Virus record (IMG/VR): IMGVR_UViG_3300012667_000289
Coordinates: 7,794-71,793 of that record
Strand: one strand, 5' to 3'
DNA: 64,000 nucleotides
Source: a virus
Taxonomy: Duplodnaviria > Caudoviricetes
The notes beneath the pieces were generated by a model that saw only the letters and a program-made list of their open reading frames with translations, was not told the DNA's origin and ran no database searches. Position 1 is the stretch's first letter, and the number at the start of each line of letters is the position of its first letter. Positions 1,111 through 61,012 of this stretch are shown one piece after another. A program made the translations under genes and the position numbers.

Positions 1111-1540
1111 ACCCTACCCTGTGTAGGGTTTCTTTTTGCTGCAAAGTTCACACATCCTGCTATCTTCCGCCGCAATGCTATAACGTGTGGGCCTGCACCT
1201 GCCTACACCTGCATCGTGCGACGAGTATAACAGGGTTCACACGTTAAGATTGAGGAATCTTAGATGTTCCACGTGCGAACTAGTCTAAACTAATACTTTT
1301 GTTTTAAAAAATCCTCGCTAGCTCACACGTTAAGATTGAGGAATCTAAGATGTTCCACGTGCGGCCCTGTATTGTTCACACGTTAAGGAACGGGATCCTA
1401 AGATGTAGAACGTGCGGATCTGCACTGTTCGCACGTGCTAAGAATTGCATTCTATGCAGTCCACGTGCGGCCCTGTTGTGCGCTGTTACACTTTGTTACA
1501 ATTACTTTGCACACACTAGCGCAAATGAGCAAAACGGCGT

Positions 1541-1583
1541 TATAATACATTATGCGCTGCAATAGTGTAGCGCATAACAGGAG
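1541..1583 (+). promoter_or_regulatory. Sigma70-like -10 box, leader hairpin and CAGGAG RBS
   Basis: TATAAT 1541-1546, then ttatgcgctgca-atag-tgtagcgcataa, then caggag; near-identical copy at 2046-2087. Confidence 0.75.
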
Positions 1584-1589
1584 CAACTT

Positions 1590-2000
1590 ATGCAACACGT
1601 AACGCAACAAGACGACAGCTATACACTAGACATTACTGTTAACAAACTGTTTACAGTAGCAGGAGACGGCTTGTGGAGCAACACTGCAAAACAAGTGTTT
1701 GTTACTAACATAACAATGTACATTGGCGCAGTGGAGGAGGACGGCTACTTTGGCGACGGCGACTTGGCAGTGCACACTACAGCAGAAACGTGGAACGAGC
1801 AAGAGCTGGGTTTAATTTACACAGACAAGGCATTTATTGCAGACGTGCGTGCAGAGCTTATTGCAGCAGGCATTGACGCAGAAGTAGCAGCAGACGTTGA
1901 CTACAGCGAGCAAGGAATGCAGGACACAGGGCGTGTTAGCTGCGATGCTTATAAACTTGCAGACTATGTGCGTGCACAGATGCAGACTGTGACAGCATAA
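1590..2000 (+). CDS. Hypothetical acidic early protein, no proline
   Basis: Promoter, RBS and terminator (2006-2040) flank it; coding strand has no TC/CC. Confidence 0.85.
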   Translation: MQHVTQQDDSYTLDITVNKLFTVAGDGLWSNTAKQVFVTNITMYIGAVEEDGYFGDGDLAVHTTAETWNEQELGLIYTDKAFIADVRAELIAAGIDAEVAADVDYSEQGMQDTGRVSCDAYKLADYVRAQMQTVTA

Positions 2001-2093
2001 CATTACAGCGCACAGGGTTATTAACTGTGCGCTGCATTTTGGTGTTATAATACATTATGCGCTGCACAGTGTAGCGCATAACAGGAGCTTAAA

Positions 2094-2423
2094 ATGGAAA
2101 ACATGAAGCGTAGATTTGTTAAACTGTGCTTGTTGCAAGACATAACATACGAAGGCGACACAGAGGCAGAACGTGCTGCGTGGATTGCTAACGTAACAGG
2201 CAGCGTGGGCACAGAGGGCTACGGGCTGCAAGACGACGGCGACGACTACATAACAGCAGAGTTTAGCACAGACGAAGTTGTGTTTGCTAACGTAGAAGTA
2301 TATTGCTACATGGGCAGCGAAAACGAGCAAGAGCGTTTTTACACAAAAGAGTGTGTTGTTGTGCAGGAAAAAGCAACAGGCGACTATTACGCATACGAGA
2401 CAGAAGACTTGTACGAAGTGTAA
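2094..2423 (+). CDS. Hypothetical acidic early protein, no proline
   Basis: Same promoter/hairpin/RBS architecture; terminator 2441-2467. Confidence 0.85.
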   Translation: MENMKRRFVKLCLLQDITYEGDTEAERAAWIANVTGSVGTEGYGLQDDGDDYITAEFSTDEVVFANVEVYCYMGSENEQERFYTKECVVVQEKATGDYYAYETEDLYEV

Positions 2424-2440
2424 TTATAACACATAACACA

Positions 2441-2467
2441 AAAAGCTGCACAGTGTGCAGCTTTTTT
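2441..2467 (+). terminator. Intrinsic terminator (possibly bidirectional)
   Basis: aaaagctgcaca-g-tgtgcagctttttt. Confidence 0.75.
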
Positions 2468-2755
2468 GTGTGCAGCAGGATCGCACGTAACAACGAAGAG
2501 GTTTAGGTGTAAGCACGTGCGAGACCCCGCTACACATTATACCTAACAAACAAGTCAGTCCGCACACCTAAACACAAAAGACCCCGCTGTCGCAGAGGCT
2601 GCGTACCTGCGGTTGCACAGGCTGTGCTCACACTTTAGATATCTAAGACCTCTAAGACCTATAGGTGTGAACACACAGTCTTTACAGGAGTAGACAGTTC
2701 GCACGTGCAACAATCTAAAGCCTTTGCTGCCTACGTGCGGATTTGCAGCGCAAAT

Positions 2756-2780
2756 AAAAAGCGCATCTAGTGCGCTTTTT
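2756..2780 (-). terminator. Intrinsic terminator for 2796-3038 gene
   Basis: aaaaagcgca-tctag-tgcgcttttt, A/T runs on both sides. Confidence 0.7.
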
Positions 2781-2795
2781 GTGTTACAATGCTGT

Positions 2796-3038
2796 TTAAT
2801 GCGCCATTGCGTTATTAATAGCTATTGCTGCAAGCACTTCTGCAGGAGCTTGTGCATACATAAACGCTTGCACTTCTGCTGTTTGTGCAGCGTTAAACTT
2901 TTCAAAGTAGTTGTCTGCAATATAGTCTGCTGTGTCCCCGTCGCCGTGCAGCATTGCTGCTTTGTAAATTGTTACAATGTGCTGCATGTCGTGCGCTGCT
3001 GCTACTTTAAGCATGTTAATTTGCATTTGCAAAAGCAT
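2796..3038 (-). CDS. Hypothetical early protein
   Basis: CAGGAG RBS (complement of 3045-3050), TGTTATAAT at 3086-3094 on minus strand, terminator downstream. Confidence 0.8.
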   Translation of the reverse strand: MLLQMQINMLKVAAAHDMQHIVTIYKAAMLHGDGDTADYIADNYFEKFNAAQTAEVQAFMYAQAPAEVLAAIAINNAMAH

Positions 3039-4568
3039 TTTAAACTCCTGTTTACTGCTGTGCGTTATTGCTGTGCAGTAAGTATATTATAACATCCAAA
3101 ATAGTAAGTTGTGCGTAAGCATTGTAACAAATTGTAACAGCGCAGTTCGCACATACAAACATCTTCCTGCACAACAGTAACACGTGCGAGCTCTTATGTT
3201 AGTGTGCACATACTAACTTGCCCGCACACGCACAAATCTTCCTGCACAGCAGCAGCACGTGCGAGCGTGCATTGCTTTTGTGTTGTGCGTTTTTTGCATG
3301 TGTCTAGTTTAACACCTCTGCAACGCAGTTCGCACGTAGGCAGCACAGGTATTTTGCATCTAACGTGCGGACATAGCACAGTGTAATACTTTAGTGCACA
3401 GTTCGCACGTAGCGGCAAAATAACCAACAGCTCCTAACGTGCGAGACCCCGCTACGGATCACACGTTATGCACAAAACTCTGCTTTAGATGTTTGCAGTG
3501 CACGTGTGGACACAAACTACATTTAAAAAACAGCGTTAGTCACACGTGCGCAAATAAATCCTGTCGCTTAGGAAAACTGCACACGTGCGAGCCGCAGCGC
3601 AATAACTAAGCAGTTAGTGCACAGTTTGCACAGTTCACACGTGCGCAAATAAATCCTGTCGCTTAGGAAAACTGCACACGTGCGAGCTACACACAGCTTT
3701 AAATGTACAAAACGCAAGTTCGCACGTTAGATGTCGTTGATGTAATTTTGTACACGTGCGAACAGCAACAACATTTAACAAAACAGCGCAGTTCGCACAT
3801 TAGATGTCGTTGATGTAATTTTGTGCACGTGTGACAAGCACGTATAACAGCGCACACACAGTTAAGCTATACAAGTGCAGTAGTAGCAGCAGTAATGCGT
3901 GCAGTAGGGTTTTAGTGCGTTACAGTGTAGTTGTAGCAGCAGCGCAAGCGATAAAGTAAGCAGTAGCGTAAGCAGCAGCGTAATTATAACACAGCTCGCA
4001 CGTGCGCAACTAATTCTGCAGCACAAGAAAATACAAAAACGTGTGAGCTGTATGCATATACAGTAATACTAAATGTTTACTGTATAAAAACACAGCTCGC
4101 ATGTGCAAAAATCTTCCTGCACAGCAGCAGCACGTGCGAGCGTGCATTGCTTTTGTGTTGTGCGTTTTTTGCTGCATAAATTTATTATACTGCCGTTCGC
4201 ACGTGTGCACAAGTAGGTTGCAGGTTAAAAACGTGCGGACTTTAACACACTGTATAAAAACACAGTTCGCACGTGCACACTGCTGGTATTTTGCAGCGCA
4301 CGTGCGAACTACAAAAACAAACAAACTATGCAGTTCGCACGTGCAAACGCATTCTAAGCAGCAAAAAACGTGCGAGCTTTAACAGCACACAAGTTCGCAC
4401 GTGCAAACGCATTCTGCAAAGCAGCGCACGTGCGAGCAAGTAAAAACAAAAATAAATTGTAACAGTTGCAAAAATACAACACAAATATATTTAAATATTT
4501 AAAAAATGCGCTATAATACGTGCACTACATAAATTTATGTAGCAACGCAACTAAAGCAAAAGCACAGT

Positions 4569-4874
4569 ATGCAAAACACACAGTTAGTTTATAATTTTTT
4601 GTTGCAAAATAGCAACAAACAGCGCACAGCAGCAAATATTGCAGCGCACACGCAACTTACAACAGTGCAAGTTAGCAGCGCACTACAATGTTTGCAACGC
4701 AAAAATTTAATTGTTGTTGCTAGCAAACAACACAAAAAACAATACACTTATGTTGTAGCAACACAACACGTTGTAGCAACGCAACATGTTGCGCAAATAC
4801 AACAAAAAAATGTTGCAGCAAAGCAACAAAATATTTTACAGCGCATAGCGCAAATGTTTAAGCGTATGTTTTAA
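4569..4874 (+). CDS. Putative winged-HTH protein lacking D/E/G/P/W
   Basis: TATAAT 4512-4517, leader hairpin, terminator 4886-4915; pattern VYNFLLQ..RTAANIAAHTQLTTVQVSSALQCLQRKNLIV resembles wHTH. Confidence 0.75.
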   Translation: MQNTQLVYNFLLQNSNKQRTAANIAAHTQLTTVQVSSALQCLQRKNLIVVASKQHKKQYTYVVATQHVVATQHVAQIQQKNVAAKQQNILQRIAQMFKRMF

Positions 4875-4885
4875 ACAACACAAAG

Positions 4886-4915
4886 TAGCGCACTAAAACA
4901 GTGCGCTATTTTTTT
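4886..4915 (+). terminator. Intrinsic terminator
   Basis: tagcgcact-aaaac-agtgcgcta followed by T-run. Confidence 0.8.
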
Positions 4916-5933
4916 GTGCACATAGCTCGCACGTGCAAACGCATTCTAAGCAGCAGCGCACGTGCGGACCCCGCTGTATAGCTCGCACGTGTTTATACAC
5001 AACGCACGCACTGTGCATGTAGTTACGTGCGAGCTGCACACAAACGCAAACTTAACACACAGTTCACACGTGTTTATGCACAACGCACGCAGCGTGCATG
5101 TAGTTACGTGCGAGCTACGCACAGCTTTAAATTGTACACAACGCAAGTTCGCACGTGCACACTGCTGGTATTTTGCAGCGCACGTGCGGACACAGTAAAT
5201 TGCGCACTAACTGCTTAATAAACAGCACGCAGTTCGCACGTGCAAACGCATTCTAAGCAGCAGCGCACGTGCGAACGCAGCACAAGCAATTAAAAACACA
5301 ACGCACAAAACAAAACAAAAACACATAAAACAAACAGTACACGCAGTTCGCACGTGCAAACGCATTCTAAGCAGCAAAAAACGTGCGGACAAAGTTGCGC
5401 AACAGCAAAATGCTGTTATAATAAACACATAGCACATTAGCAGCAGCTACGCTAACGCAAATTCGCACGTGTTTATACACAACGCACGCAGCGTGCATGT
5501 AGTTACGTGCGAACTGTATACACATACAGTAGTGCGTATTTCGCACGTGCAAACGCTTTCTAAGCAGCAGCAACACGTGCGAGACTGTGCATATATACAG
5601 TAAGCATTTAGTATACGTGTGTTTTTGCTGCATAAATTTATTATACTACCAGTCCGCACGTGCGCAGCGCTGGTATTTTACAAAAAACGTGCGGACGCTC
5701 GCACGTGTTTATGCACAACGCACGCACTGTGCATGTAGTTACGTGCGAGCTGCACATTACTGTATAAAAAACACAGCTCACACGTGTGCAGTGCATAGCT
5801 GCATGTTGCACGTGCGAGCTAATAAAACAAAAAAATAAATTGTAACAGTTGCGCAAAAACAACACAATTGTGCAGTATAATAACTGCACTGCACAAATTT
5901 GTGCAGCAACGCAAAGTAACGCAAAAGTACACA

Positions 5934-6548
5934 ATGCAAAAATTAACAGCAGCGCAAGCGCAAGCAGCAATTTTGTTGCACGCAAACAACAACACAATAA
6001 CAGCAACGCAAGTACAAAACTTGCTTGCAAATGTTAGTGTTACATTTGCACAAATTACATATGTAACGCAAGTGCAGTTAGCAGCAGCACATAAAGCGCA
6101 AAACATTTTAAAAGTAACTACAGCTAATGTTATGCTTTGCAGCAACATTAAAGCGCATACAAGCGTGTACAAGCGCAAAGTACAGCGCAGTGCAGCTAAG
6201 TATGCGCAAAACAGCGCAAGCGCAGTAGCAGCGTTTACAGCGCAGCAAAACTACTTTACGCATACAGCAGTACATAGCATTGTGCACAATAATAAAAACA
6301 TTAACGCAATGTATTTGTATTGTTTTTATAACAATGCAAGCAGCGTGTATATGCACAATAATGCAGTTGTAACAAAACAACATGTTGCAGCATACTGCAC
6401 TAAAAGTGCAGCAGCTACTTTGTTGCAGCAAAACAACACTGTGCATAATGTAACACATAACATTACACATAACGTGCAAGTGCGCACTATAGCATTACAC
6501 AACATAGTTAGTATTAAAGCACGCAAACAGTTGCTAACTGTAGCATAA
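5934..6548 (+). CDS. Hypothetical 204-aa protein lacking D/E/G/P/W
   Basis: TATAAT 5876-5881 and leader hairpin favour ATG 5934 over track start 5868; terminator 6562-6592. Confidence 0.8.
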   Translation: MQKLTAAQAQAAILLHANNNTITATQVQNLLANVSVTFAQITYVTQVQLAAAHKAQNILKVTTANVMLCSNIKAHTSVYKRKVQRSAAKYAQNSASAVAAFTAQQNYFTHTAVHSIVHNNKNINAMYLYCFYNNASSVYMHNNAVVTKQHVAAYCTKSAAATLLQQNNTVHNVTHNITHNVQVRTIALHNIVSIKARKQLLTVA

Positions 6549-6561
6549 AGCACTACACACG

Positions 6562-6592
6562 CAGCGCACTAAAACAGTGCGCTGTTTTTTTT
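6562..6592 (+). terminator. Intrinsic terminator
   Basis: cagcgcact-aaaac-agtgcgctg followed by T-run; same loop as 4886 terminator. Confidence 0.8.
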
Positions 6593-6937
6593 GTGCACAT
6601 AGCTCGCACGTGCAGCAGTGCACAGCAGCATGTATACGTGCGAGCTGTATACACATACAGTAGTGTGCGCAGCACATAGCTCACACGTGCAGCAGCGCAG
6701 AAAATATTTTTGACACGTGGGGGGCATGTATATACATACAGTAATACTATATACTACGCACGCTTGCTTGTTTTTAACACCAGTGTAGTGCAATCACCAG
6801 GGGCCGAGATCTCCAAACCTTCTTATTTTTGCGCGGCAATTTTTTTGGCTACTGTATAGACCGGGGGCTGCTCCCACTGTGAATCTACTGTAAATAAACT
6901 GTGCGCCCCCATGTGGTGCCATTACTGTGGAATTATT

Positions 6938-7179: not shown

Positions 7180-7419
7180 TCAGGCCACTATGGGAGCACG
7201 TTTGATATAGTTGGGGGCCACTGTGATCTTTTGACCTTCTACAAACGGGGGACGTTTGTGTGCACTCACTGCCTTGACTATCAACAGATCAACCTTACCA
7301 CCTGCTCGAATGTTTTCAATGCGGGCCAACAGTTGTGTATACTGTGGATAGTTTTTAGTGAGATCTAATATGTTGCCCGGGTTTAGGCCGATTGATTCTA
7401 CGAGTTCTTGTATGTTCAT
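7180..7419 (-). CDS. Hypothetical protein
   Basis: ORF track; protein-like composition. Confidence 0.6.
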   Translation of the reverse strand: MNIQELVESIGLNPGNILDLTKNYPQYTQLLARIENIRAGGKVDLLIVKAVSAHKRPPFVEGQKITVAPNYIKRAPIVA

Positions 7420-42576: not shown

Positions 42577-43446
42577 TTATAGCTGTCTAGATAACACAGG
42601 TATTGATTTTTTAATAGAACTACCAGTAATCCATGTTAACTTATGTCGTTGATCAAAGTTTTGTTTCCAAAAACTCATAGGACTGTATCGATCCCATAAT
42701 TCTCCGGGCAATATACTACGACGATCTTGATATTCTACTTTTCTACGAACTGTATGCAATCCGGTAATCTTAGCTTGATTATCAAATTCGTCGTAACTGT
42801 CTTCTACATTGTCAAAATCGTGTTCGTACCAGGGTTCTTCTAAGAACTGATAAATCTGTTGCATCGCTGCCCTAGGATTTGCCACCAATGTGTCATATTC
42901 TACATAACAAATATGACCAATCTCATTCGAGAACATGCTTTGTTGCACATTGATTAATGGTCCATGAACATACCCACCAAAGTTAGGCATTTCGCCCATT
43001 AGTATTCTGCAACGATCATGCACATTGCCCAATTCTTGATGATGATACAGCGGTTTAATTGTGTAAGGATTTTTAGCATTTAATTGCTCAAAGCTATCTA
43101 AAATCCAAGGCACATCTCTAAGACAAACAATCATCTTAAAGTTAGAGAACAAATCCTTTAACAAACTTGTATCAGATGCCCAACCGCGATTAGTGTTAAA
43201 ACAAACTTCTCGATCATTTTTGTAAAAGCTATCGAACATATCTTTAATAAGTTCACGACGCTTTTCAATAGGAACCGCAGCATCCATACCTACAGCAGTA
43301 TTTGTATCGCGAATAATGCTGTGTGCATATGAGTGCAACGGATCACTAATTCCAGAAGTGAATCTAGGATTTTGTTTCAAGATAGAACTTAACAAGGTTG
43401 AGCCCGATCTCGGTAATCCTGAAATAAAATGATACGTTTTACTCAT
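42577..43446 (-). CDS. Sulfotransferase family protein
   Basis: FISGLPRSGSTLL PAPS-binding loop; CLRDV..ILDS. Confidence 0.8.
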   Translation of the reverse strand: MSKTYHFISGLPRSGSTLLSSILKQNPRFTSGISDPLHSYAHSIIRDTNTAVGMDAAVPIEKRRELIKDMFDSFYKNDREVCFNTNRGWASDTSLLKDLFSNFKMIVCLRDVPWILDSFEQLNAKNPYTIKPLYHHQELGNVHDRCRILMGEMPNFGGYVHGPLINVQQSMFSNEIGHICYVEYDTLVANPRAAMQQIYQFLEEPWYEHDFDNVEDSYDEFDNQAKITGLHTVRRKVEYQDRRSILPGELWDRYSPMSFWKQNFDQRHKLTWITGSSIKKSIPVLSRQL

Positions 43447-45140
43447 TAGTGCTTCTTAACAAGTTTACCAACTTCGGGCAAATACAAATATCGAATGTCA
43501 CTGTTAAACAGTGTAATCAAAGCATCAATTACAGACTCGACTAATGGTTGTCCAGCTAAGTTAAAACTTGTGTTGAACACTAACGGAACACCAGTTAGCT
43601 TATAAAACTCTTGAATCAAGTTATAGTAGTGTTCATTTTGTGTTGCATTGACCGTTTGAACTCTGCAGGTGTTATCTACATGAGTAACTGCCGGAATCTG
43701 TGCGATTTTGTCTGAACGAACATCTACCGCATACATCATAAAAGGACTTGACTCCATGCCTGCCATATCAAACCATTCATTTGCGTGTTCTTCTAAACAA
43801 GATCCTGCAAACGGACGGAACCATTCGCGCTGTTTGACACGATTAACAAAGTCTTTACCGTCAGGTCTACGAGGATCAAATAAAATACTTCGATTTCCCA
43901 ATGCACGCGGACCACCTTCTGCACGACCTTGAAACAATGATACAATGTTACCCTGTTCTATAAGTTGTGCAACATCTGCGGCTGTTACATCAACAATATC
44001 TGCATTTAGTTTTTGTTGTTTGATAAGAGATAACTGATTATAATCAGGTAGTGAACTTAGATAAACAGTTGTTAGTGGTGCAGGAGTGGTGTCTTGTGAA
44101 TACTGAAACCATGCATATCTTGCAAGACCAATAGCAGTACCACCATCGTGTGCAATCGGATCAATATAGAACTTTAAGTTAGGAAAACGCTTCACAAACT
44201 TGTAATTTGCCACACAATTTAGGCCAAAACCGCCTGAAATGACCACATTTGTTTCACCGGTAATATCAACAGCCTTTTGTATTAGATCATACATTTGTTC
44301 TTCGACAGCAGCTTGAACATGATATGCAAGATTCTTATCTACATCACGCACTAGATTAAAATCATTGTGCCATTCTTTAGGTTCAGTAAAACGTTTTAGA
44401 TAAGGATTACGATTTTCGTCAATTTTTGCACCGGCAGGATAAAGAGGCATCAACAGATTTTTATTGCCTTTGCCATTGATAAAAAATTCTGGAATATTTT
44501 CATCATACGATCCATAAGGTGCAAGCCCCATAGTTTTGCCAGCTTCGATGTATCCAAAACCTAAGTAGTCGCTAACTGCTTCATATGCTTTGGTAATAGT
44601 AACACTGTTGTCAAACTCTTGAATACCGTTATCATAATAGGCAGCATTGCCGTCTGCATAACGTTTGTAGACTGCATTAAACTCATGCGGATAATTGCAC
44701 TGATAGATTGTTTCAGTTTCAAATCCGCCTACGGTAAATTGATCATTTACTTGTTCTTGATGAAAAGCGCCGGCACCGTCTACAATAACAGCCACTGCTG
44801 TGTCAAATCCTGAACCGTAAAATGTGCTGGCTGCATGACCAAAGTGATGCAAGTGCCCCATCTTAGTAACTTTAACATTAGGATTGAATTTACGTGCAAG
44901 TGCAGTATATGCATCTTCTCCTGTCCAAGGCAATTGTGAAAGCTGATTAGTTGTTCCGCCAATAACAAGTTCGTCAACAACATGATTAATTAATACATGC
45001 AACATTGCACGGAAAGGATTACCGTCATATTTCATACGGCTCAGTCGTTCTTCTTCGGAGTAGTAGATAATTTCGCCGTCTACTACTAGTGCTGCCGAGC
45101 CGTTGTGGCCCGGATTAATTGCTAAAATGCTGTATGCCAT
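43446..45140 (-). CDS. Carbamoyltransferase (NodU/CmcH family)
   Basis: GHNGSA..EEERLSR.K, SGGFGLNCVAN, GPRALGNRS, KQREWFRPFA and NTSFNLAG. Confidence 0.92.
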   Translation of the reverse strand: MAYSILAINPGHNGSAALVVDGEIIYYSEEERLSRMKYDGNPFRAMLHVLINHVVDELVIGGTTNQLSQLPWTGEDAYTALARKFNPNVKVTKMGHLHHFGHAASTFYGSGFDTAVAVIVDGAGAFHQEQVNDQFTVGGFETETIYQCNYPHEFNAVYKRYADGNAAYYDNGIQEFDNSVTITKAYEAVSDYLGFGYIEAGKTMGLAPYGSYDENIPEFFINGKGNKNLLMPLYPAGAKIDENRNPYLKRFTEPKEWHNDFNLVRDVDKNLAYHVQAAVEEQMYDLIQKAVDITGETNVVISGGFGLNCVANYKFVKRFPNLKFYIDPIAHDGGTAIGLARYAWFQYSQDTTPAPLTTVYLSSLPDYNQLSLIKQQKLNADIVDVTAADVAQLIEQGNIVSLFQGRAEGGPRALGNRSILFDPRRPDGKDFVNRVKQREWFRPFAGSCLEEHANEWFDMAGMESSPFMMYAVDVRSDKIAQIPAVTHVDNTCRVQTVNATQNEHYYNLIQEFYKLTGVPLVFNTSFNLAGQPLVESVIDALITLFNSDIRYLYLPEVGKLVKKH

Positions 45141-56398: not shown

Positions 56399-59300
56399 TT
56401 ACATTGCCATAGCAACACTCATTGCTACTGAGAAATTCTGTATGTTATTTACGGCATTAGTCGATCCGCCTGAAATAATCCTAATAATATCTCCTGTATT
56501 TCTAGCTTCGTTTACTACTACAGTAGTACCGTTTGATGCTGTGAAGTCTCCACTGCCTAAGTTGGCACCGTTAGCAAACACTTGAACAGTGCCAACAGTA
56601 TAGCCGCCAGTTACTGTGAATGTTGTTTGAGCATTTGTAGCAGTAAATTCTTGGATATTTAACGATGCACCACCGCCTCCGGTGAGTAATGTGTTGTTTA
56701 CATACAATCCACTATCGTCAACACGAATACGTTCACAAGTGCCAGCACCTAATAATAATGTGCACACACAGCCTGCGGCAGCAGGTAACGAACCGATAAC
56801 TGTGTTGTTGACACCTGTTGTGATGTTAAATCCAGCACAACATCCGATCGCTATGTTTCTATTTCCGATTGTGTTGCACCGTAATGTACCGTATCCTATT
56901 GCAACGTTATCGCGGCCAGTTATGTTTAATCCTAGTGAAAAGTAGCCAATAGCCACATTGTTCGATCCTGTAGTATTGTTGCATAGTGCGCTGCATCCAA
57001 TAGCAGTATTATTATCACCGAATGTATTTCCGCACAATGCAAAAAATCCAATTGCTGTATTGTTTACACCTGTGGTATTATTATTAAGGGCAAGATTACC
57101 AATTGCGGTATTGTGATTACCGGTGGTATTGCTGCTGAGTGTTAGACATCCTGCTGCAAAATTACTGCATCCTATAGTATTAGAACGAAGTGCACTAAAT
57201 CCTTGAGCAAAATTATTATTGCCAGTAGTGTTACTACAAAGTGCACAATATCCTTGAGCAAAATTATTATTGCCAGTAGTATTCTTATTTAATGCTAGAA
57301 CACCAACAGCAACGTTATTACATCCAGAAGTGTTGCAACCCAATGCCGCATATCCAGCAGCAAAGTTATTAGATCCCCCAGTATTACTGCACATTGCATA
57401 TGGACCTAGTGCAACGTTATAGCAACCTGCATGAGCTCCACTTAATGCACCAAGACCGACACCTACGTTATATCCGCCAGTGGCGTTAGCACACATTGCA
57501 GAATCACCAATTGCAGTGTTAGCTACTCCAGTGGTGTTATTACATAATGTACCTACACCAATTGCAACGTTGCCAGTGCCAGTTGTATTCTTTCTTAATG
57601 CAAGACTTCCTATGCCGATGTTTTGACAACCAATTGTGTTACATTGAAGTGCGTTACATCCTTGGGCAATATTGTTGGAGCCGCCAGTATTACAACGTAG
57701 TGTATTTTGTCCTATACCAATGTTATCCGAACCAGTAAGATTTCCAAGTAGTGACAGTGATCCAATTGCAGTGTTACTAACACCCCACGCATTGCATCGT
57801 AGTGCGCTACATCCAATAGCTGTGTTATTATTGCCAGTAGTATTGCCGTATAGTGCTTGGAAACCTACAGCAAAGTTATTTGCACCAGTCTGTGTTGTAT
57901 TACCGCTACAGCACCCTAAGCTGGTGTTTCCATTAGCGGTTGTATAACCTAAAACAGTTCCTAAACTTGTGGGAGTAGCGGCACTTGCCCCAGCAGTATT
58001 AACTAACGTATTATTGACATACAAACCGCTGTTATCAACACGAATACGCTCGCAAGTGCCAGCACCTAACAATAGCGTGCAAACACACCCGGCGGCTGCT
58101 GGCAAGTTTCCAATAACAGTGTTATTATTACCAGTAGTGATATTGCATCCGGCACTAAATCCAATGCCAATGTTGTTAGTTCCAGTAGTATTTCCAGCTA
58201 AGGCACACGCTCCAAAAGCAGTATTAGTACCGCCGATGTCATTATTAGTTAATGCTGCAATTCCCACAGCAGTGTTATTGCAACCAGTAGTATTAAAATA
58301 TAATGCCGAAACACCTATCGCTATATTTTGCCTTCCTGTTGTGTTTCTATAAAGTGCCGTATATCCTTGTGCAATATTGTTATTTCCAATCGTGTTGCAA
58401 TATAAAACACTGTTACCTATAGCAATATTATTACTACCAGTGGTATTGTTAAAGAGAGCTGCATTGCCTGCTGCAAAGTTATCACACCCGATAGTATTGC
58501 AAGCAAGTGAGGATCGACCTATAGCTGTATTATTATTTCCAGTAATATTGTTACATAGAGCGTTGTATCCCTGAGCAAAGTTATTACTACCAGCTGTGTT
58601 ACAAGATAATGCACGGAAGCCTATAGCTGTGTTATTACAACCAGTCCTGTTACCGGACGATGCATTATATCCTTGTGCAAAGTTATTACAACCGGTGGTA
58701 TTCAATAAAAGTGCTCGATAACCTTGAGCAAAGTTATTGTTACCACTAGTATTATTTCGAAGTGCGGCATAACCCTGGGCAAAGTTACGATTACCGGAAC
58801 AATTAAATTCAAGTGCACCGCATCCTACGGCAAAGTTATTACTACCAGTAGTATTAATTTGAAGTGCACCGCATCCTACGGCAAAGTTATTACTACCAGT
58901 AGTGTTGCAAAGCAGTGCAACAATACCGATAGCTACATTATTACTGCCGATAGTATTACTACAAAGTGCTCTATAACCTTGAGCAAAGTTATTACTACCA
59001 GTAGTGTTGCAAAGCAGTGCTCGGCATCCTACAGCAAAGTTATTTGCACCAGTCTGTGTTGTATTACCGCTACAGCACCCTAAGCTGGTGTTTCCATTAG
59101 CGGTTGTATAACCAAACACACTACCAAGTGATGTAGGAGTAGCCGGAGTATTTGCAGCACTGCTACCTACAAATCCAGTTACACCTTGAATGCCTTGTGA
59201 TCCAGTAAATCCAATTGATCCAGTAAATCCAGTTACACCTCCACTGCCTTGACTTCCAACAAATCCAGTTATACCCTGAATTCCCTGACTACCAGTAAAC

Positions 59301-61012
59301 CCAGTTACACCTCCACTGCCTTGACTACCTGTAAATCCACGTGATCCATCAAACCCAGTAAATCCACGTGATCCGTCAAAACCACGACTTCCGACAAATC
59401 CAGTTACGCCGCCACTTCCTTGACTTCCAACAAATCCGGTTATACCCTGAATGCCTTGACTACCTGTAAATCCAGTAATGCCTTGAATGCCTTGACTACC
59501 AGTAAACCCGGTTGCGCCACCACCACCCGGAAGTCCTTGGCTACCTGTAAATCCAATTGATCCAGTAAATCCACGTGATCCATCAAACCCAGTAAATCCA
59601 CGTGATCCGTCAAAACCACGACTTCCTACAAATCCAGTTGCGCCACCTCCGCCCGGTAGTCCTTGTGATCCGACAAATCCAGTAATACCTTGAATGCCTC
59701 GACTTCCAACAAATCCGGTTATACCCTGAATGCCTTGACTACCAACAAATCCAGTTACGCCACCACTTCCTTGTGATCCAGTAAATCCAGTAATACCTTG
59801 AATGCCTTGACTACCAGTAAATCCACGTGATCCATCAAAACCAGTAAATCCGCGTGATCCGTCAAACCCACGACTTCCCACAAATCCAGTTACACCACCA
59901 CTTCCTTGACTACCAGTAAACCCAGTTATGCCTTGAATGCCTTGACTACCAGTAAACCCAGTTATGCCTTGAATGCCTTGACTACCAGTAAATCCACGTG
60001 ATCCATCAAAACCAGTAAATCCGCGTGATCCGTCAAAACCACGACTTCCCACAAATCCAGTAATGCCTTGTGATCCAGTAAATCCAGCAATGCCTTGAAT
60101 GCCTTGTGATCCAACAAAACCAGTTATGCCTTGAATGCCTTGACTACCAGTAAATCCGCGTGAACCATCAAACCCAGTAAATCCACGACTTCCATCAAAA
60201 CCACGACTTCCCACAAAACCAGTTATGCCTTGACTTCCAACAAAACCAGTAATGCCTTGAATGCCTTGGCTACCAGTAAATCCAGTTACACCAGTTGCTC
60301 CAGTTGCCCAAGACATAAGTCCTGTTCCTGAATAGTAAGTGCCGCTGGCAGCAGGAAAGTTGATCTGTCCAGGAAGCCATTTTACATGTCCGTCAGTTGT
60401 ATCGCTGTTTCTTGCTGCTATCAACACCCAGCCAAATCCAGGAGCCCATCTAGTGCTGGCATAATCAACAACTCTGAATCTTGAAGGATCGGTCGTAGAT
60501 GCTTGATTTGGCCCAATTTGATACCACAGAGATTGCCAATCTCCCAAAGGAATTCCGTTGGCGTCACAGGTCACTGTAGATACAGTATTGCCGGACGCAT
60601 AATACAGTATTGTACCACTAGTAGGGCACAAAATATCTGCGTAACCTTGATTAGACAACTCTGGATTTTTTATTGGAATTGCAATAACTCTCGCACTCCA
60701 CTTAATCCTGCTGCCGTTCCAAACAACAGTTCCGCCGCCACTCAATGCATACTGTGCCGACGAAGTATTATAATCTAGAATCGAAGAAGGATTCAGCAAT
60801 GTAACGGTGCCAGTAGATGTTAGTGCTAAAACCTGTGTGCTGGTCGTGCTGGTAGTTGGCATTATACCAACGTTGGCCCATACTACAGCGCCGTTTATTA
60901 CAGTTCTTTTGTAAAGTAAATTAGTCGCACTATTGAGCCACTCGTCACCGATTGCTGCACCCACGGGTTCAGTCGCAGACACTATCTGTTGTATACTGGT
61001 CCTTGATGACAT
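56399..61012 (-). CDS. Tail fibre with collagen-like and Cys-rich repeat domains
   Basis: Gly-X-Y run followed by the same repeats as the 49458-53426 gene. Confidence 0.85.
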   Translation of the reverse strand: MSSRTSIQQIVSATEPVGAAIGDEWLNSATNLLYKRTVINGAVVWANVGIMPTTSTTSTQVLALTSTGTVTLLNPSSILDYNTSSAQYALSGGGTVVWNGSRIKWSARVIAIPIKNPELSNQGYADILCPTSGTILYYASGNTVSTVTCDANGIPLGDWQSLWYQIGPNQASTTDPSRFRVVDYASTRWAPGFGWVLIAARNSDTTDGHVKWLPGQINFPAASGTYYSGTGLMSWATGATGVTGFTGSQGIQGITGFVGSQGITGFVGSRGFDGSRGFTGFDGSRGFTGSQGIQGITGFVGSQGIQGIAGFTGSQGITGFVGSRGFDGSRGFTGFDGSRGFTGSQGIQGITGFTGSQGIQGITGFTGSQGSGGVTGFVGSRGFDGSRGFTGFDGSRGFTGSQGIQGITGFTGSQGSGGVTGFVGSQGIQGITGFVGSRGIQGITGFVGSQGLPGGGGATGFVGSRGFDGSRGFTGFDGSRGFTGSIGFTGSQGLPGGGGATGFTGSQGIQGITGFTGSQGIQGITGFVGSQGSGGVTGFVGSRGFDGSRGFTGFDGSRGFTGSQGSGGVTGFTGSQGIQGITGFVGSQGSGGVTGFTGSIGFTGSQGIQGVTGFVGSSAANTPATPTSLGSVFGYTTANGNTSLGCCSGNTTQTGANNFAVGCRALLCNTTGSNNFAQGYRALCSNTIGSNNVAIGIVALLCNTTGSNNFAVGCGALQINTTGSNNFAVGCGALEFNCSGNRNFAQGYAALRNNTSGNNNFAQGYRALLLNTTGCNNFAQGYNASSGNRTGCNNTAIGFRALSCNTAGSNNFAQGYNALCNNITGNNNTAIGRSSLACNTIGCDNFAAGNAALFNNTTGSNNIAIGNSVLYCNTIGNNNIAQGYTALYRNTTGRQNIAIGVSALYFNTTGCNNTAVGIAALTNNDIGGTNTAFGACALAGNTTGTNNIGIGFSAGCNITTGNNNTVIGNLPAAAGCVCTLLLGAGTCERIRVDNSGLYVNNTLVNTAGASAATPTSLGTVLGYTTANGNTSLGCCSGNTTQTGANNFAVGFQALYGNTTGNNNTAIGCSALRCNAWGVSNTAIGSLSLLGNLTGSDNIGIGQNTLRCNTGGSNNIAQGCNALQCNTIGCQNIGIGSLALRKNTTGTGNVAIGVGTLCNNTTGVANTAIGDSAMCANATGGYNVGVGLGALSGAHAGCYNVALGPYAMCSNTGGSNNFAAGYAALGCNTSGCNNVAVGVLALNKNTTGNNNFAQGYCALCSNTTGNNNFAQGFSALRSNTIGCSNFAAGCLTLSSNTTGNHNTAIGNLALNNNTTGVNNTAIGFFALCGNTFGDNNTAIGCSALCNNTTGSNNVAIGYFSLGLNITGRDNVAIGYGTLRCNTIGNRNIAIGCCAGFNITTGVNNTVIGSLPAAAGCVCTLLLGAGTCERIRVDDSGLYVNNTLLTGGGGASLNIQEFTATNAQTTFTVTGGYTVGTVQVFANGANLGSGDFTASNGTTVVVNEARNTGDIIRIISGGSTNAVNNIQNFSVAMSVAMAM
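59163..60302 (-). repeat. Collagen-like Gly-X-Y repeat without Pro-rich triplets
   Basis: GFT-GSQ-GIQ-GIT-GFV-GSR-GFD units over about 380 aa. Confidence 0.9.

What the first reader, a model, noticed from the sequence alone, without database searches (positions are those of the whole stretch)
1474..6780. A 5 kb island purged of one dinucleotide class (GR/YC)
Seen: 4436-4927 (~490 nt) and 5818-6604 (~790 nt) contain no GA, GG, TC or CC, while TT, CT, AG, AA and CG remain common. The four missing dinucleotides are one motif, 5'-GR-3' and its complement 5'-YC-3'. The rest of the window uses them normally. Known: 7-deazaguanine insertion in phage CAjan occurs at GA and GGC, and YC is the context of UV-type and APOBEC-type C-to-T change. 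Inference: this block must stay free of a GR/YC-directed chemistry. That could be the phage's own base hypermodification, which might block host RNA polymerase on early genes, or a host modification/cleavage system acting on first-entering DNA.
Basis: partly seen in the sequence, partly recalled or inferred. Interest (0 to 1): 0.95.

Follow-up and report, generated by a model that had tools for sequence, protein, structure and literature searches.

The report
Early phage genes banning YC/GR dinucleotides
A block of first-expressed genes in an uncultured giant phage has been rewritten by selection, proteins included, so that the message strand never contains TC or CC (and in two genes no GA or GG either). 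This points to something in the infected cell that reads those two-letter words during early transcription, but I could not identify it.

Summary
Window 4435-4927 and 5817-6604 contain no GA, GG, TC or CC. The longest such run elsewhere is 45-46 nt, in 66 kb of this contig and in a 322-kb relative.

It is not an artefact. An independent assembly, 92-93% identical over this stretch, carries the same island. Two copies of the 204-aa gene differ at 147 of 609 bases yet both stay clean (P about 1e-45).

The ban is not one duplex motif. Its core is strand-specific and follows transcription. Every island gene lacks YC on its sense strand, which means GR on its template strand. This flips with gene orientation and holds in all codon phases. 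Sense-strand GR is either untouched (acidic genes 1590-2423) or reduced to the coding minimum (4569-4874, 5934-6548). A 270-nt stretch between two convergent terminators is normal.

The trait recurs across a large metagenomic clade related to Pseudomonas phage PA5oct, but it is absent from PA5oct itself and from two complete relatives.

The mechanism is unresolved:
- RNA-level escape (Rho's YC-specific site, or CmdT-like enzymes acting on mRNA): about 0.4.
- Avoiding the phage's own GR-directed guanine modification on template strands: about 0.25.

This scan has reported the same phenomenon eight times before, on other DNA.

The parts
1148..1470 (.). Five inverted-repeat elements upstream of the first cassette. 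Dinucleotide use here is normal.
   Evidence: elements at 1148, 1237, 1323, 1376 and 1429; 29 GR and 36 YC in 325 nt.
1473..2481 (+). Two class A cassettes (promoter, leader hairpin, CAGGAG ribosome site, ORF, terminator). No YC on the sense strand for 1009 nt; GR is normal.
   Evidence: (run at genome 9266-10274).
1590..2000 (+). Class A gene A1, an acidic 136-aa protein with no Pro. Sense YC 0 (expected 14). GR 50 (minimum 36-38, expected 48-50).
   Evidence: A homolog in G007 has normal YC.
2094..2423 (+). Class A gene A2, an acidic 109-aa protein with no Pro. YC 0 (expected 9). GR 45 (expected 48).
2482..2750 (.). Gap between the terminator of A2 and the terminator of the minus-strand gene. 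Probably not transcribed. Dinucleotide use is normal.
   Evidence: 21 GR and 23 YC in 278 nt. Terminators.
2750..3188 (-). Class A cassette on the minus strand (ORF 2796-3038, 80 aa, own TATAAT box, leader hairpin and CAGGAG). The ban flips: GR is absent on the + strand, that is YC on its sense strand.
   Evidence: sense YC 2, minimum 1, expected 10; GR-free run 2847-3188.
3100..4436 (.). Array 1: 14 inverted-repeat elements with promoter-like and terminator-like spacers. The spacers are purged of both classes.
   Evidence: 700 unmasked nt hold 7 GR and 14 YC (3%, against 17% in the genome).
4437..4925 (+). Class B cassette: TATAAT promoter, leader hairpin, no Shine-Dalgarno site, ORF 4569-4874 (P0002, 101 aa, winged-helix-like, no D/E/G/P/W), terminator. 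Free of GR and YC.
   Evidence: (MarR/wHTH families below threshold).
4926..5818 (.). Array 2: 11 elements. The spacers are purged of both classes.
   Evidence: 394 unmasked nt hold 1 GR and 4 YC.
5819..6603 (+). Class B cassette: ORF 5934-6548 (P0001, 204 aa, no D/E/G/P/W), with its own promoter, leader hairpin and terminator. Free of GR and YC.
6604..6780 (.). Last element (6604-6643) and the right edge, where normal dinucleotide use resumes.

Best explanation
The island is a set of first-expressed mini-cassettes of an uncultured jumbo myovirus related to PA5oct. Each cassette has a sigma-70-type promoter, a leader hairpin, a small ORF and an intrinsic terminator.

Selection has recoded them under one rule that follows transcription: the message strand must not contain 5'-YC-3'. 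This is the same as saying that the template strand must not contain 5'-GR-3'. In a second, sharply separate class of cassettes (P0002, P0001), and in the promoter-bearing spacers of two repeat arrays, GR is also removed from the message strand down to the coding minimum.

Shown here: the rule, its strand specificity, its independence of reading frame, its maintenance by purifying selection, and its recurrence in a large clade.

Inferred: the purpose. I favour escape of the earliest transcripts from an activity that reads these dinucleotides in single-stranded RNA, before the phage has neutralised it. Rho's primary binding site is the only known reader of YC. CmdT-type mRNA ADP-ribosyltransferases are known readers of GA. 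A comparable but undescribed YC-directed enzyme acting on mRNA fits the zero tolerance better than Rho does.
For: 1. Strand specificity that flips with gene orientation: + genes 1590 and 2094 have sense YC 0; the minus gene 2796-3038 has + strand GR about 0; convergent genes in L121 each have sense YC 0.
2. The ban acts on dinucleotides, not codons. In class A, 0-1 codons ending in C or T precede a codon starting with C (64 of 65 C-starting codons follow A or G). In class B, no codon ending in G precedes A or G.
3. Selection: W and L004 differ at 147 of 609 nt and both are clean, while only 49% of single substitutions keep the gene clean, giving P about 1e-45. There are 244+ homologs carrying 0-20 D+E+G+P+W residues out of about 203.
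4. The only normal DNA inside the island (2482-2750) lies between two convergent terminators.
5. Sense-strand GR is bimodal. Either 100% of avoidable GR is removed, even where a few D/E codons remain, or none is removed and sometimes there is an excess (z about +3). That fits a second, separate reader or time window rather than one duplex motif.
6. Known readers exist: Rho's primary site binds 5'-YC (PMC12360218); avoiding Rho shapes sense-strand composition (PMC13323073); CmdT modifies GA in single-stranded RNA and not in double-stranded RNA (PMC11618068).
7. Two phages reported as G-modified (PA5oct, CAjan) show no purge. This weakens the main DNA-level rival.
Against: - The ban also holds in terminator and leader stems, and for about 70-100 nt upstream of the -10 boxes, which is probably untranscribed DNA. 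A reader of single-stranded RNA does not predict either.
- The spacers of the arrays are purged on both strands. This needs transcription of both strands; promoter-like boxes exist there but I did not show that they work.
- Against Rho specifically: tolerance is zero, although isolated YC should be harmless; residual YC in near-clean homologs is not concentrated at 3' ends (28 of 41 lie in the first half); the cassettes are short and carry their own terminators; Rho does not explain the GR ban.
- No enzyme that acts on YC in RNA is known.
- The arms of the elements, which carry the surviving YC and GR, do not covary. So there is no evidence that they survive because they are hidden in RNA stems.
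- PA5oct's reported modification context (GA and/or GG) matches the banned template motif, which would be a coincidence under this model.
Confidence: 0.4

Rival explanations
1. Template-strand avoidance of the phage's own guanine modification. Virion DNA carries a 7-deazaguanine-type base at 5'-GR-3'. Only the earliest genes are read by host RNA polymerase from this incoming modified DNA, so their template strands, and in regulatory DNA and class B cassettes both strands, are kept free of GR.
For: - The banned template motif equals the context inferred for PA5oct: its DNA resists EcoRI, BmrI, XbaI and BsaI, and QueE and QueD are present (PMC12191111).
- QueD (PF01242) is present in the three large relatives G001, G008 and G009.
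- The ban covers stems, promoter modules and non-coding spacers, as a DNA-level cause predicts.
- It is restricted to cassettes with sigma-70 promoters.
- The untranscribed gap 2482-2750 is exempt.
Against: - PA5oct itself has no purge; its longest runs are 244-311 nt in 33% GC DNA.
- CAjan, which encodes TGT, FolE, QueC, QueD and QueE, has none either; its maximum run is 112 nt.
- G001 and G008 have QueD but no purge.
- No TGT, QueC, QueD or FolE was found in five purge-bearing fragments totalling 406 kb. These are fragments, and PF01702 also misses PA5oct, so the TGT negative is uninformative.
- Sense-strand GR in class A is not minimised at all, so modified G on the non-template strand would have to be harmless there yet intolerable in class B.
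- ApaLI (GTGCAC, no GR) also failed to cut PA5oct DNA.
- From general knowledge, not tested here: bacterial RNA polymerase reads heavily modified templates such as T4 DNA.
Confidence: 0.25
2. Attack on the displaced non-template DNA strand. A YC-specific deaminase or nuclease acting on single-stranded DNA (in the manner of APOBEC3 at TC/CC, or of T4 endonuclease IV at TC) hits the sense strand that heavy early transcription exposes, and selection removes its targets.
For: The ban is specific to the sense strand, linked to transcription, allows no exceptions, acts at the DNA level (so stems are included), and reaches a little beyond the transcription unit.
Against: - There is no signature of the products. 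CT is rare and the sense strand is rich in A, not T (A 39%, T 23%).
- Ser is recoded to AGY, and Ala and Thr to codons ending in A or G, rather than to T.
- No such bacterial defence is known.
- Class B would need both strands to be exposed.
- Damage to the non-template strand does not stop transcription.
Confidence: 0.12
3. Symmetric avoidance on double-stranded DNA of a GR/YC-containing target: restriction sites, CRISPR PAMs such as CC, GG or TTC, or a modification-dependent nuclease, on DNA that enters the cell first.
For: - Class B cassettes and array spacers are symmetric.
- The island lies within 15 kb of a contig end in five assemblies (G000, G004, G006, L117, L157).
- PA5oct has a 39-kb terminal repeat, so this clade has fixed genome ends.
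Against: - Class A genes keep 45-56 GR on one strand and 0 YC on the other, which gives no benefit under a symmetric target.
- The ban flips with gene orientation.
- The island is 3-9 times enriched in ACGT, GCGC and TGCA, with 35 CACGTG sites.
- A cut anywhere else in the genome would be just as lethal.
Confidence: 0.05
4. Assembly or base-calling artefact, or neutral mutational bias.
For: None found.
Against: - Independent assemblies from JGI, ENA and Logan samples show the same property at 60-98% protein identity.
- ORFs are intact, and the AlphaFold2 model of P0001 is confident (pLDDT 90).
- 56 codons differ synonymously between two clean copies.
Confidence: 0.01

Closest known systems
Rho utilisation sites and Rho-avoiding sense-strand composition (Rho primary binding site specific for 5'-YC; purine bias under runaway transcription, PMC12360218 and PMC13323073)
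   Same: The constraint is on the message strand, follows the direction of transcription, involves the same dinucleotide (YC), and affects genes read by host RNA polymerase. Several class A genes even carry excess GR, that is, purine-rich sense strands.
   Different: Here the ban is absolute rather than quantitative, and it removes proline altogether. It applies to short cassettes that have their own terminators, and also to stems and promoter modules. Residual YC is not concentrated at 3' ends. A second class of genes also bans GR, which Rho does not read.
CmdTAC defence: CmdT ADP-ribosylates adenine in GA dinucleotides of single-stranded mRNA (PMC11618068)
   Same: It shows that a two-letter word in single-stranded mRNA can be the target of an anti-phage effector, with each site counting. 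That matches both the zero tolerance and the GR-minimised class B genes.
   Different: CmdT reads GA, with only faint activity on other purine pairs. Here GG is banned equally, and the universal ban is on YC, for which no enzyme is known. CmdT is triggered late, by capsid protein, whereas these genes are early. No cmdT-like gene was examined here.
Motif-specific 7-deazaguanine DNA modification of phages (CAjan GA/GGC; PA5oct modified G in GA and/or GG, PMC12191111)
   Same: The same dinucleotide class on DNA, in the closest cultured relative's family. It would explain why only genes read from incoming virion DNA are affected.
   Different: Neither PA5oct nor CAjan shows any purge. No pathway genes were found in the purge-bearing fragments. 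The ban is strand-specific, whereas the modification is not.
APOBEC3 footprint (TC depletion) in genomes of animal DNA viruses
   Same: Depletion of YC in a virus, ascribed to an enzyme that reads that context in single-stranded DNA.
   Different: Those footprints are partial and mutational, and they leave an excess of the T products. Here depletion is total, selected, without excess product, and confined to a few early cassettes.

Membership tests
Phage 7-deazaguanine (Que/DpdA) DNA modification system | DNA transglycosylase of the TGT/DpdA family encoded by the phage | tested here: inconclusive
   PF01702 finds nothing in G000, G004, G006, G007, G011, G012, G001, G008 or G009. It also finds nothing in PA5oct at E<=1, so the model does not detect this clade's enzyme, if one exists.
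Phage 7-deazaguanine (Que/DpdA) DNA modification system | preQ0 synthesis genes (FolE, QueD, QueE, QueC) in the same genome | tested here: inconclusive
   QueD, QueC and FolE are absent from the 71.8-kb record and from four other purge-bearing fragments. QueD is present in the large relatives G001, G008 and G009. The purge-bearing records are 13-36% complete.
Phage 7-deazaguanine (Que/DpdA) DNA modification system | Modified G in virion DNA at GR | not testable with these tools
   This needs LC-MS or modification-aware sequencing.
Rho-avoiding transcript composition | Message strand depleted of YC, following gene orientation | tested here: met
Rho-avoiding transcript composition | Graded, density-dependent effect: isolated or 3'-terminal YC tolerated | tested here: not met
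   Observed YC is 0 against 9-34 expected in more than 20 genes. Residual YC in near-clean homologs shows no 3' bias.
Evasion of CmdT-type GA-directed mRNA ADP-ribosylation | GA removed from single-stranded mRNA while GG and other words are left alone | tested here: not met
   GA and GG are both 0 in class B. Class A keeps GA at the expected level.
Restriction-site (palindrome) avoidance | Short palindromes under-represented in the protected DNA | tested here: not met
   Per kb, island against rest: ACGT 15.6 vs 2.2, GCGC 11.7 vs 1.3, TGCA 23.9 vs 8.4. There are 35 CACGTG sites in 3.6 kb.
Deaminase (APOBEC-like) mutational footprint | Excess of the product dinucleotides (YT) on the depleted strand | tested here: not met
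   CT counts are 10-23 and TT 43-55, against AA 87-122. The sense strand is 39% A and 23% T.
First-step-transfer or terminal early region (T5-like) | Location at the physical genome end that enters first | tested here: inconclusive
   The island lies within 15 kb of a contig end in five assemblies, and PA5oct has a 39-kb terminal repeat. No terminus was mapped here, and in L119 the island lies about 46 kb from the end.

The most novel reading that the evidence does not exclude
The hosts of these phages, or the phages themselves, have an undescribed activity that acts on 5'-YC-3' in single-stranded RNA or transcribed DNA. It would be analogous to CmdT at GA, and a second activity would act on GR. 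The phage's first-expressed genes, presumably its antidotes, have evolved to be invisible to these activities, to the point of encoding folded proteins in 15-19 amino acids.
Probability: 0.3. Interest if true: 0.9.

Novelty: new variant of a known kind. Interest (0 to 1): 0.8.

Why it matters
Motif avoidance is well known: restriction sites, CpG and ZAP, APOBEC footprints, Rho-driven purine bias. I found no published case of an absolute, strand-specific ban on a dinucleotide that removes one to five amino acids from functional proteins and persists across hundreds of diverged gene copies.

It matters for three reasons:
- It marks, from sequence alone, the genes a jumbo phage must express first, and so candidate anti-defence genes.
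- It implies a reader of YC and GR that works with near single-site sensitivity.
- It provides natural proteins (P0001, modelled at pLDDT 90) that fold without Asp, Glu, Gly, Pro or Trp, which is of interest for work on reduced amino-acid alphabets.

Tried and rejected
An independent assembly was used instead.
- DNA similarity search against cultured phages: no match. P0001 has no tblastn match in cultured phages. A1 gives only weak hits in two Xanthomonas phages.
- Searches for TGT, C5-methyltransferase, QueC, QueD and FolE in purge-bearing fragments: all negative. The TGT search is uninformative, because it also misses PA5oct.
- Test of whether GR-free palindromes are avoided more than GR-containing ones in the bulk genome, as an indirect sign of GR modification: inconsistent. 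G000 4-mers give p=0.013, G000 6-mers are not significant, G004 shows the opposite pattern of k, and the positive control PA5oct shows nothing.
- RNA-hairpin reading of the 33 elements: the arms do not covary beyond what shuffling gives (108 vs 104.9 +/- 1.9, P=0.13). They look like paired DNA half-sites.
- HEPN-like R-x4-H in P0001: not conserved in L004 (read).
- Fold of P0001: no Foldseek match in the PDB. VIA-align gives at best Z 5.1 to Sm/Hfq/WYL/YaeO-type small barrels, which is below significance.
- Codon or tRNA-level explanation: rejected by the codon-junction table.
- Scans for the purge in PA5oct, CAjan, G001 and G008: none found.
- Literature searches for a published description: none found. 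The Matilda preprint was irrelevant.


Full report
WHAT THE WINDOW IS
The window is bases 7794-71793 of a 71.8-kb IMG/VR record that CheckV rates about 20% complete. It encodes a DnaB-like helicase, further helicases, a large terminase, an 1117-aa tail sheath and large fibre proteins. Its terminase is 53% identical to that of the Pseudomonas jumbo phage PA5oct, with Agrobacterium and Sinorhizobium jumbo phages next. It is therefore a fragment of an uncultured jumbo myovirus of roughly 320-370 kb. Related metagenomic contigs of 322-375 kb exist.

CHECK OF THE OBSERVATION
The maximal clean runs are 493 and 788 nt. Outside the island the longest such run is 45 nt in the other 65.9 kb of this record and 46 nt in a complete 322-kb relative.

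A 232.6-kb scaffold from another sample (L157) carries the same island at 92-93% identity over window 4332-6864 (87-96% over the longer matches). It has clean runs of 490 and 782 nt and the same 33 repeat elements. The sequence is real.

ANATOMY OF THE ISLAND
The island is built from small cassettes. Each has a TATAAT-type promoter, a leader hairpin, a small ORF and an intrinsic terminator. Between them lie 33 copies of an inverted-repeat element: half-site about RGYYCGCACGTG, arms 24-27 or 34-35 nt apart. This element occurs nowhere else in the record.

The genes are:
- A1 (1590-2000, +)
- A2 (2094-2423, +)
- A3 (2796-3038, -)
- P0002 (4569-4874, +)
- P0001 (5934-6548, +)

THE BAN IS STRAND-SPECIFIC
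The decisive result is that the ban does not behave as one duplex motif.

On their sense strands A1, A2 and A3 have 0, 0 and 2 YC, against 14, 9 and 10 expected from their amino acids and the phage's codon usage. Their GR counts (50, 45, 13) equal expectation (48, 48, 16) and are well above the possible minima (36, 38, 11). For the minus-strand gene A3 the pattern flips on the + strand.

The same holds in relatives. In L121, convergent genes each lack YC on their own sense strand (for example 0 GR and 51 YC per 300 nt on the + strand across minus-strand genes). Across eight loci, 31 genes have sense YC of 0-1.

The ban is independent of reading frame. In class A, 64 of 65 codons starting with C follow a codon ending in A or G. 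In class B, no codon ending in G is followed by A or G, whereas 149 are followed by C or T. A codon-level or tRNA-level cause is therefore excluded.

TWO CLASSES FOR SENSE-STRAND GR
I re-computed the expected GR under the condition that the gene stays YC-free. The result is bimodal.
- Either all avoidable GR is gone (P0001, P0002 and their relatives). This includes copies that keep two to five Asp/Glu codons, where observed GR equals the coding minimum or exceeds it by one.
- Or none is gone, and in five genes there is a significant excess.

The second ban removes Asp, Glu, Gly and Trp. The first removes Pro.

SELECTION, NOT MUTATIONAL DRIFT
P0001 belongs to a family of at least 244 metagenomic proteins. 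The 120 best hits carry 0-20 D+E+G+P+W residues in about 203, and 58 of them carry at most 2.

The window's gene and its L004 homolog differ at 147 of 609 nucleotides (56 codons differ synonymously, 45 non-synonymously), and both are clean. Only 49% of possible single substitutions keep the gene clean, so neutrality gives about 1e-45.

The protein is real. With 55 homologs AlphaFold2 gives pLDDT 90 and pTM 0.84. No convincing relative exists in the PDB.

The degree of purge varies by lineage:
- complete in G000, L157, L004, L117 and L130;
- near-complete in L005, L119, L127 and L128;
- partial in G007 and L121;
- absent in L120, L125 (G008) and L134.

The A1 homolog in G007 has normal YC and contains Pro. 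The genes were therefore recoded within this clade.

WHERE THE BAN STARTS AND STOPS
Aggregated over 31 genes, sense YC is about 0 from roughly -25 of the ATG to the stop codon. It stays low from about -100 and returns gradually within 50-150 nt after the stop. In class B both classes are about 0 from about -125 to +50.

In the window, the only normally composed DNA inside the island is 2482-2750, which lies between the convergent terminators of A2 and A3. This ties the ban to transcription units.

Two further facts need explaining. Stems of terminators and leaders obey the ban. The array spacers, which carry -10-like boxes on both strands, are purged on both strands (3% and 1.3% against 17%).

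The surviving YC and GR sit in the element half-sites. The two arms of an element do not covary, so they look like paired protein-binding sites on DNA rather than selected RNA stems.

WEIGHING THE MECHANISMS

(a) A reader at the RNA level.
- Rho's primary site is specific for 5'-YC, and avoiding Rho is known to shape sense strands.
- Against Rho: a few isolated YC should be harmless, yet tolerance is zero. Residual YC shows no 3' bias. The cassettes are short, and Rho does not read GR.
- CmdT shows that a defence enzyme can read a dinucleotide (GA) in single-stranded mRNA. An analogous YC-directed enzyme would fit the zero tolerance, and the two classes would reflect two readers. No such enzyme is known.
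- The RNA-level models do not explain the purge of promoter modules and spacers, unless these are transcribed.

(b) Template-strand avoidance of the phage's own guanine modification.
- PA5oct DNA resists several GA- or GG-containing restriction enzymes, and the phage encodes QueE and QueD. QueD is present in three large relatives. The banned template motif (GR) is exactly that context.
- This model explains why only genes read from incoming DNA are affected, and why stems and promoters are included.
- Against it: PA5oct has no purge. CAjan, which carries a full Que/TGT set, has none either. G001 and G008 have QueD but no purge. No pathway gene is present in 406 kb of purge-bearing fragments. 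Class A leaves sense-strand GR completely unselected.

(c) Attack on the displaced non-template DNA strand fits the strand logic, but the expected product signature is missing.

(d) Symmetric models on double-stranded DNA (restriction, PAMs, first-entering DNA) fail on class A and on the strong enrichment of palindromes in the island.

My weights are 0.40, 0.25, 0.12 and 0.05, with 0.01 for artefact or neutral bias. About 0.17 is left for something I have not thought of.

POSITION IN THE GENOME
The island lies within 15 kb of a contig end in five independent assemblies (G000, G004, G006, L117, L157). PA5oct has a 39-kb terminal repeat. A position near a physical end or a repeat boundary is therefore plausible, but it is not shown here.

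RELATION TO EARLIER WORK IN THIS SCAN
The scan has noted the same phenomenon eight times on other genomes. Those follow-ups were divided between Rho, CmdT-like enzymes and guanine modification. I checked the papers they named.

- the bimodality of sense-strand GR;
- the normal composition of the gap between convergent terminators;
- the lack of arm covariation in the elements;
- the absence of any purge in PA5oct and CAjan;
- the lack of 3' bias of residual YC.

I found no published description of the phenomenon.

Noticed in passing
window 1148-6643: 33 elements made of two inverted half-sites (about RGYYCGCACGTG), spaced 24-27 or 34-35 nt apart. ACGTGCG occurs nowhere else in the 71.8-kb record. 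The arms do not covary, so they look like paired DNA-binding sites. The winged-helix-like P0002, encoded between the two arrays, is a candidate binder. The close relative L157 has 33 as well. L004 has different arms (GTTCGYGC type), and L117 has almost none.
   Followed up: partly
window 5934-6548 (P0001): A 204-aa protein without Asp, Glu, Gly, Pro or Trp that AlphaFold2 models confidently (pLDDT 90) as an alpha/beta fold. Foldseek finds no PDB match. The best VIA-align scores, Z 4-5, are to Sm/Hfq/WYL/YaeO-type small barrels and are not significant.
   Followed up: partly
window 4184-4189 and about 5636 (minus strand); 4086-4091, 4253-4258 and about 5763 (plus strand): TATAAT or TATAAA boxes inside the array spacers on both strands. 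Some lie 7 nt before an element. This suggests many short transcripts in both directions across the arrays.
   Followed up: no
window 7180-7419 (-) against L157:9655-10305 (-): In the close relative L157, the minus-strand gene next to the island encodes a 216-aa protein with a sigma-70 region 4 domain. The window lacks about 430 nt here and keeps only a 79-aa ORF. This may be a truncated sigma-like factor.
   Followed up: no
window 2517, 2581, 3445, 4969: A short motif, GACCCCGCT, recurs directly beside some elements. It accounts for several of the few YC and GR outside the elements.
   Followed up: no
rest of G000 (outside the island): GTAC (72 observed, 208 expected) and CATG (106 observed, 216 expected) are strongly under-represented in the bulk genome. 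In G004, AATT (273 vs 759) and CTAG (124 vs 328) are. This probably reflects restriction avoidance unrelated to the island.
   Followed up: partly
window 43446-45140 (-), 56399-61012 (-): A NodU/Nol-type carbamoyltransferase lies among the tail genes. A carbamoyltransferase also lies near the early region in L120. Separately, a 1537-aa protein carries collagen triple-helix repeats.
   Followed up: no
G004 6-8 kb; L005 2-7 kb; L119 11.4-14 kb: Long runs of small + strand genes next to the islands of relatives show a milder sense-strand YC depletion (GR:YC about 3-10:1 per 300 nt). The ban may therefore grade into a weaker, wider bias across early genes.
   Followed up: partly
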